The position numbers and the translations under genes were made by a program. 64,000 nucleotides of DNA from the human T2T-CHM13v2.0 reference genome, Homo sapiens. The notes under the pieces are model-generated. The model saw only the letters and a program-made list of their open reading frames with translations. It was not told the origin of the DNA and made no database searches. This document shows, piece after piece, positions 21,563 through 27,291 of the stretch; within the stretch, counting starts at the first letter, position 1; each line of letters starts with the position of its first letter. The stretch is from assembly GCA_009914755.4 (NCBI GenBank), contig CP068257.2, positions 24,448,001 through 24,512,000 of the forward strand. The letters are read 5' to 3'.

Positions 21563-21846
21563 AGGGCTGAGCATGGTGGCTCATACCCGTAATCTCAGCA
21601 CTTTGGGAGGTCCAGCCAGAGGATCGCTTGAGCCCAGGAGTTTCAGACAGCCTGGCCAACACAAGGAGACCCCATCTCTACTAAAAATTAAAAAAAATCA
21701 GTCAGGCCTGGTGGCATGTGCCTATAGTCCAGCTACTTGGGAGGCTGAGGTGGGAGGATTGCTTGAGCCCAGTAGGTCAAGGCTACAGTAAGCCATAATC
21801 TTGCCACTGCACTCCAACCTGGGTGACAGAGTGAGGAAAAAAAAAA
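21563..21846 (+). mobile_element. Alu (older, AluJ/S-like); lies about 240 bp from the exon 2 donor, antisense to APP
   Basis: Sequence ggctgagcatggtggctcatacccgtaatctcagcactttgggaggtccagccagaggatcgcttgagcccaggagtttcagacagcctggccaacacaaggagaccccatctc... Confidence 0.87.
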
Positions 21847-22087
21847 GTGCTGTGACATCTTAAACTACTGTTTAGTGATGGTCATAATACGACATCATAA
21901 TTTTAAAAACATTTATATGTATATCATAGGGTAATGCAAATAAATATATTAATGGTATGGTGAATCATTAGGAACCAAGATTTTTACTGTAGGGTTAAAA
22001 TACTGATGCAAAATACAAGAAGTTAAATTTTTTGAAAACAAATGCATGTGATCCAACGTGAATTGCTAGCCACCGGACAGGACTTAC

Positions 22088-22255
22088 TTCTTGGCAATAC
22101 TGCAGGATGCCTTCCTTGGTATCAATGCAGGTTTTGGTCCCTGATGGATCTGAATCCCACTTCCCATTCTGGACATTCATGTGCATGTTCAGTCTGCCAC
22201 AGAACATGGCAATCTGGGGTTCAGCCAGCAGGCCAGCATTACCATCAGTGGGTAC
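22088..22255 (-). CDS. APP: APP exon 2 (168 nt, 56 codons, residues V20-E75 of the E1 growth-factor-like domain; contains Cys38, Cys62, Cys73)
   Basis: Minus-strand translation [56 protein letters not shown] is an exact match to human APP. It is also visible in the supplied ORF 21995..22207 ([41 protein letters not shown]...). Acceptor is cttcttctttcag|GTACCC (revcomp of plus 22256-22268). Donor is CAAGAA|gtaagtc (revcomp of plus 22081-22087). Length is divisible by 3. Confidence 0.97.
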
Positions 22256-24889
22256 CTGAAAGAAGAAGCTTCAGTTAGTTATAGTATCCATAGCTCCAAG
22301 GCAGAGGCTTGGAGGAAGAACAGGGATAACTATCAAAAAGAGTTCTATTCTTGCTCATTCTCAATTAGGAATCAGCCCGGTCTTCAACACTCCTTTAGAT
22401 TAAGTGTTATGTATGCTACAGATGTTCTTAGCCACCTATAAGGCAATGCTTTCTTTTATACTAAAACAGAGAAGGAAATTACCAATACCGAAAGGAATTT
22501 ATTCATGAAAAATTTACACGTTTTCCCATATGAGATTTTGTGGTACCTGCTGAAAGGTTCTGACAACAAAATTACACGTTTTCCTATAATAAATATAATC
22601 ACTGTGGAGGCTACCGCATTCTTATAATAAACTCCACTGACTCACACAGAGCATGATGCCTGCCAGGCCCTGCCTGATGACCAAGACTGAAAATAATATT
22701 TGTGCCACCTCTCAGCACTGAGAGCAAGTATGGCGTTGGTAGTTAGCAAGTGACTGTATTATGATTTTGAACAGAAAAATTCACTGTAGAATTCACCATC
22801 CACAAATATAACTGAGTATGTTGGCGATCCCTCCTGGTTTCCCCCAGAATATTCTCTGGTTATCAGTCTCAACTCTTAACAAGTCTGTTAAGAGTGCTGG
22901 TGTCTCCTCTCCCAACCATCTGCAAGGAGCCAACATTTTCTCATTTGGAGCTCTACATAGTGCCTGCTGGGTAGTAAGTAAGGGGTCCTAGCTATTACCA
23001 TTGCAGGCAATAGACCACTTCACAAAATAACTTCATGAAAAAGGGTGCCTTCTGTATTTTCAAACTCTTCTGTGTACAGGCATTACCTTTACAAAAATAT
23101 TTTTAAAAGAGAAAATGGAAGTCCTGAAATATCTATACCGTGTCACTTAACAGGTTCTGGTATCTCAAAAAGAAAAAAAAATTCAGCAAGAAATGAAAAA
23201 TATATCCACAGGAGTAAAGGTGTTATTAAACCAATCAATTAGAAGGCATATTAATCATGATAGGCCCTCCCTTGTCAAATCCAGCTGCTGGGGAAATGTG
23301 AGACACCCATGCCAAGAAGAATTAACTTCCAGCAGAAGCCATTCGTTCACACACTCAAGAACTGGGTGATTCCACGATAACTTGTATCATTCCTAAAAAC
23401 TGTCCACAGGAGGAAAAACACCAACTAAAATTGCACTGAGAAATTTTCAGTTAAAGAAATGAAACAGTTTCCAAACATTTCTTCCCACATAAATGTAAAA
23501 TAAGATACCTCTGGCCATTTTAGTCATTTTTACACATACTTCGTCAAAACCCAACAGAGGACTTAGGTCCTTACAACAAAAAAACAAAACAGGTCTTAGA
23601 TTGAACCAAGTCATGAGTGCAAAAGCTGCTGGCAAAATCTCTAGAGCCATGTTTTCAAGTAACTTTTCCAATATTTAACGAAATTCTGCCTTTACATTGC
23701 CAGATGGTTAAGTCAAAGCAGCCGATGCCAAAATATCCAGATCATCTGCAGAAATAGCTAGAACCCCTCAACTCCATCTGAGCCCCTTGCCACTTCCTGT
23801 GACTTCCATGAAACTGGGGGGTCTCATTCTCTGACAGATGCAAAGCAGCAGGCTAAGTAGAATGCTCTATAAATTTAAATTTCACAGCTTTCCTGAGGGA
23901 TTAAGAGGAAATTCATTGTCTTGATCTTAGAAATCGAAATGCAAATGTTGTCAATCTTACTGAAATAAGTAGTATAGATAATAACACTGCAAAAACATTA
24001 AAGAAAGTCAAATAATAATCAGATACCTGTGGATAAGGCCCTACATCAGATGCTATGGAGGGCCCTGCCCGTAAGGAATGTACAATCCACTAATGGAATC
24101 GCCATTGTTCCCACAGTACTTTATTCTGTTCACCTTCCGAATTCATTCCTGTCCCAAAGATTTCCAGTCTTGGCAGCATGTTGTTAACTGTACGGAGACA
24201 CTAATGAGCCTTTACCATAGCTGGTAAATATTCTGTTGAAACAGTCTCCTCCTCTGCCTCAAACTCTCTCTGTACTTTTGTTTATCCACAATCTGTTCAT
24301 TACAATGTCTAAGGAAAGCGTTCTACCTTCTTGTCAATACAAATGCACTTGATTCCATTTCCTCCCCGCAAGGAGAGGAAATTGACAATTTCTCTCCCCA
24401 GGGTAGCCAGCCTCCAAGAAGGCCCCCAATAGTCCCTGCCTCCTGCTATTCATGGACCCTGGGAAACTCCACAATGTATCAGGGTCTGTCTGTGCAACAA
24501 ATGGAGTACAGCAGAAGTGATGATGGTGTAACTTCCGAGCATGTATATATTAGACTTAAAGATGCTGCAACTCTTTTAAAAACAAACCCTTTGCTACCAG
24601 AAAGGTCACTGAAGGGCATGATGATGTGTAACATCCAAAACAAGGTCATGAAGGGCATCACAATTCTTCATTGCTCTCTGGGATCACTCACTGTGAGGGA
24701 GGTCATCAGCTGCCATGTTCTGAGACATTTGGTGCTAAAACCAGGAAAGTTTTTGGCAAAATACACTGGATCACCCTACCTGACAAACCAAGTAAATGCT
24801 TCATTTTTTTTTCCTCTTTTGACTTAACTTCCTTTGATTTCTTCTATTTTTCACTTTGTCATCCTCCCTGCTTCTTGACTTTACAGCTA

Positions 24890-25126
24890 TTTTAATGTCA
24901 TCTGTTGGCATATGTGTGTATGCTGACTATCAAAAAGTGGTAATTTTTTAAACATTTTTTTCAAATAAATTTATTATGACCCTATAATTGTCTCATGTTC
25001 TTGCCATTTTTTAATGCCATCTGTTGGCATATGTGTGTATGTTGACTACCAAAAAGTGGTAATTTTTAAAACATTTTTTTCAAATAACTTGATTACGGCG
25101 CTATAACTGTCTCATGTTGTCTTCAT
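24890..25126. repeat. Tandem duplication, 2 x about 118 bp (about 90 percent identity)
   Basis: Copy 1 (24890-25007) and copy 2 (25008-25126) both read ttttaatg.catctgttggcatatgtgtgtatg.tgacta.caaaaagtggtaattttt.aaacatttttttcaaataa...ctataa.tgtctcatgtt...cat. Confidence 0.85.
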
Positions 25127-26997
25127 TTTAACAATGAGAGTTTAGACTAGAAAATATATGCTTCAGTTCCTGTCAGGTTTTCCACCAGATGAGATTTAAT
25201 ATTAACTTTAAAAATAAATGTTTGGAGAATCGTGATGATTAACATGCTCTATTTTCTTCAAGTGGAGATCATTTAATAATTTAAACTGCGAATCCTCAAT
25301 AATAGGGTAAGCTGTTGAATTAGAAATTGTAAAATTGGTTGTGTGTATAGATCTTCTTACATTTGACATTACAAGAGGCCCTTCACAAATAAATATCAAC
25401 TCACAAAAGCCATGTTTCTCAAGTAAAATTTTTTCCCCCCGAACCAACACCAGATGTGTATATGGAAATCAGAGCAATTAGCTTGGAGATACAAATTGAA
25501 CCAGAAACCTTCCTATTCTTACTGAAGCCCATCTGCAAACAATTCCATGCTTTCACTACATATGCCTGTCTCCCTGAATTAAAACAAGACAAACAACTCA
25601 CGGCATCCTCACCTGCATCAAATAACCCATTTATGAAACAAAGCCTGGTTGCTAAGCGCAGCCACTCCCTGGCATTCAGCCAGAAGGAAATGTGGCCACA
25701 TTAAACATTGCCATCCAAGGGTTAACTCCCTTTTCCTGAGTGAAGCCTCCAAGAAATGACTTAATAAATGATACACAGGGTCCTATTCAGGATCTGTTAA
25801 TATGGACACTCTTAAAATTGAAATCTTTTAAGATTCAATTTACCTGCCAAATACCTGAAATCTGGCAGGTATTTGCTGCCAGTAAAAAAGCACAGTCTTA
25901 CAAAGTCATCCTAAAGATAATTATTCCTAATTTTTTAAACATTTTTATTTTCTAAAAGAAAAGAAATATAAATACCTTAGTAGATGGGAAATATAACCAC
26001 TTAACTACTACATTTTAGTTCTATTTATGTCTTAACACTATTCTAAGGTGAGTTAAGATTACTTTGCAAAAATCTAAGACAACATTTAAAAGATGAGAAC
26101 TGTGATATAACTGGCCGTTTGTGGTCTATGCTTTTCTAAGACTGAATATGAAGGTAATTCTTGTAAACTGAATGACTTGCCACTGACATCATAAAACTGG
26201 AGATGCTTTCCCATGGGAAAACAGTGTTCCTGACAATGAACAAAATAACCAGCTAAAAACAATGAAGCATTCATAAATTGCCTCAAAAGCAAGAGGCTGT
26301 TTACCAAGTGCTCTGAACTACAGAGACGTACATATCAAACTTAAAAATGCTACAAGTCTTAAAAACAGAAAGAAAATATTTTTGTTACCAGAAAAAAAAT
26401 ATTTTTGAGCCACAATATAAAGAATACTGAAGTGAAATGGACTTTCCAAAGCAATTTTTAGAAATGGCTTTAAAAGAGGCTTAAGGGGATAACATAAACG
26501 AATATAAACATATATACCTAATCTGGACCAGTCTGCAGATGTGAATCTGGAAACCCTACGCCTACAGTTGCTACAATTTTCAATTAAATGCAAAGCCACC
26601 TTCTTGAACAAGTTCTCTTGTTGTCCTTTCAAACAGGGTGTTCCCTTTCTCCAAAAAGTTTCTCTCTGTTATCATCTAGGAGATCAAAATTCCTTATAGA
26701 GCAGGCTTGGCAGCATTCCTCCCCAACAGGGTCTCAACTAGGAGGGAAAAGTGAACAAGGAGCTCTCTGTTTTGCTAGCTGAGAGGTCCTGTTTGGCAAG
26801 GAGAGGGCACAGATCCATAGCTTAGTTGCATCCGTGGATTTATGTAATTTTAAGGTTTCTGGCTAATGAAAGCCATCTGTTTTCTGCATTTGAACCACCC
26901 GCTGACTAGTCTAAATAGCTGGCCTCATATAATGAAGTATTTGGTACTTTTTAATCAGTTCAAACTTCTTCGAGTCAGATTCTTGCATAATCTCAGT

Positions 26998-27291
26998 ATT
27001 TTTTTTTGGATACACTGTCACACTCCACCACCCAGACTAGAGTGCAGTGGCATGATCTCGGCTCACTGCAACCTCTCCGCCTCCTAGGTTCAAGCTATTC
27101 TCCTGCCTCAGCCTCCCAAGTAGCTGGGACTACAGGCCTGTGCCACCACGCCCAGATAATTTTTGTATTTTTAGTAGAGACAGGGTTTCACCATGTTGGC
27201 CAGGCTGGTCTCGAACTCCTGGCCTCAAGTGATCCTCCTGCCTCGGCCTCCCAAAATGTTGGGATTACAGGCATGAGCCACTGTGCCCAGC
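26998..27291 (-). mobile_element. Alu (full length), sense relative to APP
   Basis: Sequence (t)9ggatacactgtcacactccaccacccagactagagtgcagtggcatgatctcggctcactgcaacc...gggattacaggcatgagccactgtgcccagc. Confidence 0.9.

What the first reader, a model, noticed from the sequence alone, without database searches (positions are those of the whole stretch)
21563..27291. In-frame exon 2 is bracketed by oppositely oriented Alus (possible skipping / back-splice substrate)
Exon 2 is 168 nt, so skipping it keeps the reading frame. Exon 3 is 130 nt, so skipping it does not. In the pre-mRNA (minus strand), an antisense Alu (21563-21846) sits only about 240 nt past the exon 2 donor. Sense Alus lie upstream in intron 1, the nearest at 26998-27291, then 28659-28948, 30397-30562 and 31503-31749. 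Complementary Alus across an exon can pair in the pre-mRNA and are a recognised driver of exon skipping and exon circularisation. An exon-2-lacking APP isoform (APP639) has been reported in the literature, which fits an exon that is dispensable for frame. Any causal role of these particular Alus is inference.
Basis: inference. Interest (0 to 1): 0.5.

Follow-up and report, generated by a model that had tools for sequence, protein, structure and literature searches.

The report
Inverted Alus around APP exon 2
Exon 2 of the human amyloid precursor protein gene does sit between oppositely oriented Alu repeats that could pair in the RNA, but a third of random spots in this window are bracketed as closely, and nothing here shows these Alus affect splicing.

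Summary
The window is human APP on the minus strand. Exon 2 (22088-22255) is 168 nt, starts and ends on codon boundaries and has canonical splice sites. Exon 3 (62-191) is 130 nt. An antisense Alu (21563-21846) lies 241 nt past the exon 2 donor, and four sense Alus lie upstream at the stated coordinates. The flagged pair is 76.9% complementary over 273 nt and can form a duplex of about 248 bp.

The arrangement is not distinctive. Alus make up 12% of the window. 34% of random positions have an equally close spanning inverted pair, and all have one within 10 kb. Same-intron partners pair as well or better, and antisense Alus further upstream in intron 1 are transcribed first. Exon 2's splice signals look strong by inspection.

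APP639 (lacking exons 2, 7 and 8) is a reported isoform. I found no described APP circRNA containing exon 2 and no paper linking APP639 to intronic Alus, but only 15 papers could be read. No RNA-seq or RNA-editing data could be reached, so the causal idea stays an untested, generic inference.

Verdict: a real and accurately described feature, an ordinary instance of a well-known arrangement, and of low interest.

The parts
22088..22255 (-). APP exon 2: 168 nt, on codon boundaries at both ends, encoding residues 20-75 (Cys38, Cys62, Cys73), the N-terminal part of the growth-factor-like domain.
   Evidence: tblastn to the APP N-terminus; AG|...|GTAAGT boundaries; PDB 8kew_F residues 20-75.
22256..22279 (-). 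Exon 2 acceptor region: an ACTAAC branch-site match with the branch A at about -20, an 11-nt pyrimidine tract, then CAG.
   Evidence: Sequence read directly. The strength is judged by eye against consensus, not scored.
22080..22087 (-). Exon 2 donor, GAA|GTAAGTCC. All six intron positions match the consensus. Exon positions -1 (A) and -3 (G) do not.
21563..21846 (+). Alu (AluJ-like, 82.6% to consensus), antisense in the pre-mRNA, 241 nt downstream of the exon 2 donor. In the pre-mRNA it starts with a U10 tract and has an internal U8 tract.
26998..27292 (-). Alu (AluS, 89.7%), sense in the pre-mRNA, 4742 nt upstream of the exon 2 acceptor. It is the nearest partner of the downstream Alu: 76.9% complementary over 273 nt, 248 bp duplex.
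   Evidence: 7SL model 69.9 bits at 27175-27291.
28659..28948 (-). Second upstream sense Alu (AluS, 83.4%).
30397..30579 (-). Third upstream sense Alu, truncated and old (AluJ-like, 79.2%).
31503..31750 (-). Fourth upstream sense Alu (AluS, 91.7%).
20255..20545 (+). It pairs with 27031-27281 at 79.9%.
18716..18994 (+). Third downstream antisense Alu (AluS, 89.4%). It is the best partner across the exon for the 27 kb Alu: 85.7% over 251 nt, dG -475 kcal/mol.
62..191 (-). APP exon 3, 130 nt. Skipping it shifts the frame.

Best explanation
This is human APP exon 2 with parts of introns 1 and 2. Exon 2 is a well-defined internal exon that is normally included. Old primate Alu insertions happen to lie in sense orientation upstream and antisense orientation downstream of it.

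In the pre-mRNA these Alus can form long imperfect duplexes across exon 2. They can pair just as readily with partners in their own introns. Most likely the flagged Alus are ordinary intronic passengers. At most they make low-level looping-out of exon 2 possible, giving back-splicing or skipping as minor by-products. They are not a dedicated switch.

The known rare exon-2-lacking isoform APP639 is explained by the frame-neutrality of a 56-codon exon plus ordinary tissue- or stage-specific splicing regulation, without any need for these Alus.

Shown: the anatomy, the complementarity, the frame arithmetic and the background frequency. Inferred: that the Alus have little or no specific effect.
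For: - Anatomy and frame.
- Pairing capacity.
- Background frequency: 12% Alu content with 31 Alus in 64 kb. 34% of random positions have an equally close spanning inverted pair and 100% have one within 10 kb.
- Competition: duplex energies with same-intron partners are equal or better. For the 27 kb Alu they are -454 and -474 kcal/mol, against -404 for the flagged pair.
- Order of transcription: 12 of the 15 Alus called in intron 1 above 39 kb are antisense, so the upstream sense Alus have partners from 7.6 to 12 kb away that are transcribed before exon 2.
- Geometry: inverted-Alu distance 4983 nt, with flanking introns of 21.9 kb and more than 41.7 kb. This resembles the distal-Alu, long-intron class, which its authors consider largely independent of inverted Alus (PMC7819710).
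- Exon definition: exon 2 has an ACTAAC branch site, an 11-nt pyrimidine tract and a GTAAGT donor.
- Exon size: single-exon circles tend to come from unusually long exons (PMC5042038). Exon 2 is only 168 nt.
- Skipping versus circles: about 90% of cardiac circRNAs come from constitutive rather than skipped exons (PMC5959250).
- Repression: hnRNP C binding to Alu elements represses circularisation (abstract of PMC13134581). The downstream Alu carries U10 and U8 tracts. That such tracts are hnRNP C sites is my own knowledge.
- Described APP circRNAs are exons 14-17, exons 4-7 and mouse exons 4-6.
Against: - The local geometry is somewhat favourable. The four nearest upstream Alus are all sense and the three nearest downstream are all antisense, so the closest full-length partner of each flagged Alu lies across exon 2.
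- A toy looping model (weight = separation^-1.5) puts 67-69% of the pairing weight of the two flagged Alus across the exon.
- The arrangement with three uniform, opposite full-length Alus on each side arises in only 1.8% of orientation shuffles (a test chosen after seeing the data).
- When the downstream antisense Alu is transcribed, every available partner lies in intron 1.
- APP639 proves that exon 2 is sometimes skipped.
- PMC10002054 reports 33 APP circRNAs described from RNA-seq data. I could not inspect that list, so an exon 2 circle may well be catalogued.
Confidence: 0.72

Rival explanations
1. Intron-pairing model. Duplexes between the upstream sense Alus and the downstream antisense Alus bring the exon 2 acceptor and donor together. 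This promotes exon 2 back-splicing into a circRNA and, in the same step or through the lariat, the exon1-exon3 join that underlies APP639.
For: - Complementary Alus on both sides, with a 248-bp duplex.
- No other complementary sequences nearby.
- The nearest full-length partner of each flagged Alu is across the exon, and toy-model weights are 0.67-0.69.
- Uniformly opposite orientation of the flanking Alus.
- The mechanism is established in general (PMC11263572).
- Circles often include a gene's second exon (PMC5042038).
- APP639 exists.
Against: - The configuration is common by chance.
- The flagged pair is the most diverged of the pairs made with the 27 kb Alu (76.9%). The upstream arm is 4.7 kb from the acceptor.
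- Same-intron competitors have equal or better energies and are transcribed earlier.
- The introns are long, the geometry its authors consider largely Alu-independent.
- The exon is short for a single-exon circle.
- No exon 2 circRNA was found in the papers I could read.
- APP639 expression is reported as fetal tissues and adult liver only. A fixed cis structure does not explain that pattern by itself.
Confidence: 0.15
2. Single-Alu effect. The antisense Alu 241 nt past the donor acts alone, through its U-tracts (hnRNP C or other U-binding proteins) or through cryptic splice sites. It weakens exon 2 definition or is occasionally exonised, without needing the upstream Alus.
For: - In the pre-mRNA the Alu starts with U10 followed by ...CACCCAG|GT. 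It has an internal U8 tract.
- Antisense Alus near exons can shift them towards skipping, as in the RABL5 example in PMC11263572.
- hnRNP C binds Alu elements (abstract of PMC13134581).
Against: - The documented example concerns an Alu just upstream of the affected exon, not downstream.
- No consensus-like donor (GTRAG) occurs inside this Alu. The only AGGT lies at the usual acceptor position.
- The element is old and diverged (82.6%).
Confidence: 0.06
3. The Alu duplexes form but only serve as ADAR and dsRNA-binding-protein substrates in the excised or nascent introns. They have no measurable effect on the splicing of exon 2.
For: - Strong predicted duplexes for many inverted pairs in the window.
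- Editing of inverted Alus is widespread and tends to destabilise them (PMC11263572).
Against: Nothing here speaks against it directly. It is compatible with the best explanation and differs only in asserting that pairing actually occurs. It cannot be tested without editing data.
Confidence: 0.07

Closest known systems
Inverted-Alu (IRAlu) intron-pairing-driven exon circularisation (Jeck 2013; Zhang 2014; Ivanov 2015, as reviewed in PMC11263572 and PMC5042038)
   Same: Oppositely oriented Alus sit in the two introns flanking an internal exon with canonical splice sites. They can form a long duplex. Pairs across the exon compete with pairs within one intron.
   Different: No back-splice product is shown. 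The upstream arm is 4.7 kb from the acceptor and the introns are very long, so this is not the proximal-Alu, short-intron class. The exon is only 168 nt.
[not shown]
   Same: Long flanking introns (21.9 kb and more than 41.7 kb) and a fairly distant closest inverted Alu pair (4983 nt summed distance).
Lariat-driven (exon-skipping) circularisation
   Same: A frame-preserving skipped exon exists (APP639). An exon-2-containing lariat must therefore form at some frequency and could be re-spliced into a circle.
   Different: No circle is documented. Genome-wide, only a minority of circles trace to skipped exons (about 10% in heart, PMC5959250).
Alu-modulated alternative splicing of a neighbouring exon (Lev-Maor et al. 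2008; the RABL5 case as summarised in PMC11263572)
   Same: An antisense Alu lies close to an exon, with a sense Alu able to pair with it.
   Different: In RABL5 both Alus lie in the upstream intron and the antisense one is next to the acceptor. Here the antisense Alu is downstream of the donor and the sense Alus are across the exon.
[quoted passage not shown]
   Same: Same host gene. The authors of the exon 14-17 circle also invoke complementary intronic elements in general terms (PMC7650678).
   Different: None of these contains exon 2. They arise tens to hundreds of kilobases downstream of this window.

Membership tests
Alu SINE (7SL-derived dimeric element) | Sequence similarity across the roughly 280-nt dimeric consensus | tested here: met
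21571-21835 covers consensus positions 11-272 at 82.6%. 27031-27292 covers positions 2-260 at 89.7%.
Alu SINE (7SL-derived dimeric element) | Both arms are homologous to 7SL/SRP RNA | tested here: met
   Rfam RF00017 hits two arms in each element on opposite strands: 69.9 and 25.7 bits on the minus strand, 27.9 and 24.2 bits on the plus strand, E from 1.5e-16 to 2.6e-3. All are below the gathering score of 70, as expected for Alus.
Alu SINE (7SL-derived dimeric element) | A-rich linker and 3' poly(A) tail | tested here: met
   Read in the sequence. The upstream Alu ends in A9 at about 27000-27008. The downstream Alu shows the complement, T10 at 21837-21846, plus an internal T8.
Alu SINE (7SL-derived dimeric element) | Flanking target-site duplications | not tested
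   The flanks were printed. No convincing duplication was obvious by eye and no formal search was made. The elements are old.
IRAlu-flanked, circRNA-producing exon | Reverse-complementary repeats in both flanking introns | tested here: met
   20 inverted matches between the two introns with the upstream arm below 32.5 kb and the downstream arm above 12 kb, all at Alu coordinates. The flagged pair is 76.9% over 273 nt with 248 bp.
IRAlu-flanked, circRNA-producing exon | Canonical AG/GT splice sites at the would-be back-splice junction | tested here: met
   CAG|GTACCC...CAAGAA|GTAAGT.
IRAlu-flanked, circRNA-producing exon | Pairing across the exon wins over pairing within one intron | tested here: inconclusive
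   The nearest full-length partners lie across the exon and toy-model weights are 0.67-0.69. Same-intron partners have equal or better dG, and the upstream ones are transcribed first.
IRAlu-flanked, circRNA-producing exon | An observed back-splice junction or RNase R-resistant product | not testable with these tools
   No RNA-seq or circRNA database is reachable. The papers and supplements I could read list APP circles of exons 14-17, 4-7 and 4-6 only.
IRAlu-flanked, circRNA-producing exon | The arrangement exceeds the local background | tested here: not met
   34% of random positions have an equally close spanning inverted pair and 100% have one within 10 kb.
Frame-preserving cassette exon (APP639-type skipping) | Exon length is a multiple of 3, with codon boundaries at both ends | tested here: met
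   168 nt = 56 codons. Frame 0 is open, and the exon1-exon3 join reads ALE|VYPELQ. The arithmetic 695 - 56 = 639 agrees.
Frame-preserving cassette exon (APP639-type skipping) | A documented transcript lacking the exon | tested here: met
   From the literature only. APP639 lacks exons 2, 7 and 8 and is found in fetal tissues and adult liver (PMC4314671 citing Tang et al. 2003). A protein-database search for the junction recovered nothing useful.
Frame-preserving cassette exon (APP639-type skipping) | Skipping depends on the flanking Alus | not testable with these tools
   This needs minigene or editing experiments, or cross-species junction data. No paper in the library links APP639 to intronic Alus.

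The most novel reading that the evidence does not exclude
The uniformly opposite block of Alus (four sense upstream, three antisense downstream) really does drive a primate-specific exon 2 circle. That 168-nt circle has no stop codon in the APP frame and three in-frame AUGs. It could therefore be translated round and round into repeats of the N-terminal half of APP's growth-factor-like domain. The same looping event would yield APP639.
Probability: 0.03. Interest if true: 0.6.

Novelty: already known. Interest (0 to 1): 0.12.

Why it matters
If the Alu pairing did control exon 2 usage, it would give a primate-specific cis mechanism for an APP isoform that lacks half of the E1 growth-factor-like domain, including Cys38, Cys62 and Cys73. 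It would also add one more APP circRNA. That would be of modest interest for APP biology and of little relevance to A-beta production, since the A-beta region lies in exons 16-17.

As things stand, the finding shows that inverted Alus around an exon are the default in long, Alu-rich human introns. They have almost no predictive value on their own.

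Tried and rejected
1. Ungapped inverted-repeat search. It missed the flagged pair because the Alus differ by indels. I replaced it with gapped blastn.
2. Rfam at gathering thresholds over the whole window returned nothing. The Alus appear only with the E-value threshold.
3. Literature searches by approximate hg19 and hg38 exon 2 coordinates. 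Every hit was a PubMed id such as 27484176 or another unrelated number. Three paper slots were wasted.
4. A search on the circBase id prefix 'hsa_circ_00613'. The ids found belong to BACH1 and other genes, not APP. 'circAPP' in the breast-cancer paper is circAPPBP1/2.
5. The supplements of the circA-beta paper contain no mention of exon 2 or exon 3.
6. A protein search with an exon1-exon3 junction query, meant to find exon-2-lacking APP models in primates versus non-primates. It returned 14 short fragments. The best, from manatee, is a gene-model artefact that starts in the intron before exon 3. Uninformative.
7. A search for short non-Alu complementary sequences near exon 2 gave only matches of 14 nt or less at chance E-values. 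That alternative pairing source is rejected.
8. Exonisation of the downstream antisense Alu. It contains no consensus-like donor, so I did not pursue this.
9. Jeck et al. 2013 (PMC3543092) is not held in the library.
10. A combined search for APP639 with Alu or circRNA terms was badly designed and uninformative. The clean repeat found one paper, and its 'Alu' refers to promoter repeats.

Full report
**What is there**

The window is part of the human amyloid precursor protein gene (APP), transcribed from the minus strand. Residues 20-75 map to 22255-22088 and the next 43 residues to 191-62.

Exon 2 is 22088-22255, exactly 168 nt. It is preceded by ...ACTATAACTAACTGAAGCTTCTTCTTTCAG and followed by GTAAGTCC. 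It is open in frame 0 (VPTDGNAG...GILQYCQE). The Protein Data Bank search confirms that this peptide is residues 20-75 of APP770 and lies inside the crystallised E1 / growth-factor-like domain (8kew_F, 3ktm, 1mwp).

Exon 3 is 62-191, 130 nt, with CCCAG| before it and |GTGAGC after it. Exon 1 is not in the window. At least 41.7 kb of intron 1 and all 21.9 kb of intron 2 are present.

**Checking the observation**

They cover 12% of the window, 20 antisense and 11 sense relative to the pre-mRNA.

An independent check that does not rest on my memory agrees. Rfam's 7SL/SRP model hits both arms of each flagged element, on opposite strands.

The downstream Alu (21563-21846) is antisense in the transcript and starts 241 nt after the donor. 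The nearest upstream Alu (26998-27292) is sense and lies 4742 nt before the acceptor. As reverse complements they align at 76.9% over 273 nt with 7 gaps. They cofold into 248 intermolecular base pairs, -404 kcal/mol, or -216 after subtracting the two self-folds. Shuffled partners give -148 +/- 8.

The frame statements are also right. 168 is 3 x 56 and the exon starts and ends on codon boundaries, so exon1-exon3 reads ALE|VYPELQ. 130 is not divisible by three.

APP639, lacking exons 2, 7 and 8, is a reported isoform found in fetal tissues and adult liver (PMC4314671 citing Tang et al. 2003). The arithmetic 695 - 56 = 639 agrees.

The next two Alus downstream (20255-20545 and 18716-18994) are also antisense. 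Exon 2 therefore sits between a block of four sense Alus and a block of three antisense Alus. All pairs between these blocks bracket exon 2 alone.

The best-matched pair across the exon is not the flagged one. It is 27031-27281 with 18727-18971, at 85.7% and -475 kcal/mol.

No non-Alu complementary sequence exists near the exon. Only chance matches of 14 nt or less appear.

**Is it more than chance?**

No, in the sense that matters. I slid a 168-nt pseudo-exon across Alu-free positions of this same window:
- 34% of positions are spanned by an inverted full-length Alu pair no further apart than the flagged pair.
- 87% are spanned by one within 8 kb, and 100% within 10 kb.
- With orientations shuffled, the nearest Alus on the two sides of exon 2 are inverted 43% of the time.

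The cleaner pattern, with the three nearest full-length Alus on each side uniform and opposite, arises in 1.8% of shuffles. I chose that test after seeing the data, and orientation runs are common in the window. For example, 12 of the 15 Alus called between 39 and 64 kb are antisense.

**How it would work, and how likely**

The general mechanism is established. Inverted Alus in flanking introns pair, bring a downstream donor near an upstream acceptor and promote back-splicing. Pairs within one intron compete and favour linear splicing. ADAR1, DHX9 and hnRNP C oppose the pairing, while NF90/NF110 and SAM68 favour it (PMC11263572; abstract of PMC13134581). Skipped exons can also be circularised from the lariat (PMC5042038).

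For this locus the evidence is mixed.

In favour:
- The closest full-length partner of each flagged Alu lies across the exon, at 5.2 kb. The closest same-intron partners are at 9-12 kb.
- A crude looping model puts 67-69% of their pairing weight across the exon.
- When the downstream Alu emerges from the polymerase, all available partners are in intron 1.

Against:
- The four upstream sense Alus are transcribed after a dozen antisense Alus in intron 1. The nearest of these is 7.6 to 12 kb away, depending on the Alu. Pairing energies are equal or better: -454 and -474 against -404 for the 27 kb Alu.
- The summed distance from the splice sites to the closest inverted pair is 4983 nt and the introns are very long. 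This is the geometry of the distal-Alu, long-intron class, which its authors consider largely Alu-independent (PMC7819710).
- Single-exon circles tend to come from unusually long exons (PMC5042038). This exon is 168 nt.
- About 90% of circles in heart come from constitutive rather than skipped exons (PMC5959250).
- The downstream Alu carries U10 and U8 tracts. These are typical hnRNP C binding sites (my own knowledge), and hnRNP C binding to Alus represses circularisation.
- By inspection, exon 2 has a perfect ACTAAC branch-site match at about -20, an 11-nt pyrimidine tract and a GTAAGT donor. I did not score these formally. There is no intrinsic weakness for a nearby structure to exploit.
- The fetal and liver restriction of APP639 points to trans-acting regulation. 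A fixed cis structure does not explain it.

**Comparison with what is known**

One paper states that 33 APP circRNAs have been described from RNA-seq data, with 17 more seen by RT-PCR and sequencing (PMC10002054). I could not inspect these lists, so an exon-2-containing entry may exist.

No paper in the searchable library links APP639 to intronic Alus. The single co-occurrence refers to Alu-type repeats in the promoter.

As a kind of feature this is fully known: annotated Alus, an annotated exon and a published skipped isoform. The specific causal link is unpublished as far as I could see, and it is also unsupported.

**Consequences if exon 2 is removed or circularised**

Skipping deletes residues 20-75, including Cys38, Cys62 and Cys73. 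From my knowledge of the 1MWP structure, the disulfides are 38-62, 73-117 and 98-105. On that basis Cys117 would lose its partner and the growth-factor-like domain would probably not fold normally.

Exons 2 and 3 both begin with a valine codon. The mature N-terminus Leu-Glu-Val would therefore be unchanged.

A circle of exon 2 alone would have no stop codon in the APP frame and three in-frame AUGs. In principle it is an endless reading frame. This is arithmetic, not evidence of translation.

**Verdict**

The tools confirm the anatomy. They also show that the arrangement is ordinary for this gene, with competing pairings and strong splice signals.

The decisive data could not be reached: splice-junction and back-splice reads, editing clusters, and minigene or deletion experiments. 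I estimate about 0.15 that Alu pairing measurably drives exon 2 skipping or circularisation. I estimate about 0.72 that these Alus are passengers with, at most, a minor permissive effect. Interest is low.

Noticed in passing
window 24890-25118: A tandem duplication in intron 1 with a 119-nt unit, 1.9 copies and 90% identity. It is not an Alu, and its origin and age are unknown.
   Followed up: partly
window 27175-27291 (- strand): The left arm of the AluS scores 69.9 bits against Rfam Metazoa_SRP, just 0.1 bit below the gathering threshold of 70. The same Alus give sub-threshold hits to the Alu-derived miRNA families mir-1268, mir-1285, mir-619 and mir-3135. This shows how close Alus come to false RNA-gene calls.
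   Followed up: no
window 39311-62430: A strong orientation run in intron 1. Twelve of the 15 Alus called above 39 kb are antisense to APP. Across the whole window 20 are antisense and 11 sense. The run supplies many early-transcribed competitors for the sense Alus near exon 2.
   Followed up: partly
window 21197-21218: An uninterrupted run of 22 T in the pre-mRNA sense, about 870 nt downstream of exon 2 and outside any called Alu. It could be the tail of an antisense retroposon or a mononucleotide microsatellite, and is a potential site for U-tract-binding proteins.
   Followed up: no
window 22088-22255 and 62-191: Exons 2 and 3 both start with a valine codon (GTA and GTC). The first three residues of mature APP after signal-peptide cleavage, Leu-Glu-Val, would be identical with or without exon 2.
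   Followed up: yes
The 12202 element is the least diverged Alu in the window. It gives the strongest predicted duplex with the antisense Alu at 18716 (-499 kcal/mol), a same-intron competitor.
   Followed up: partly
P0001 (manatee 'amyloid-beta A4 protein-like', 172 aa): A public gene model that begins with 26 unrelated residues and joins APP at exon 3. [quoted passage not shown]
   Followed up: yes
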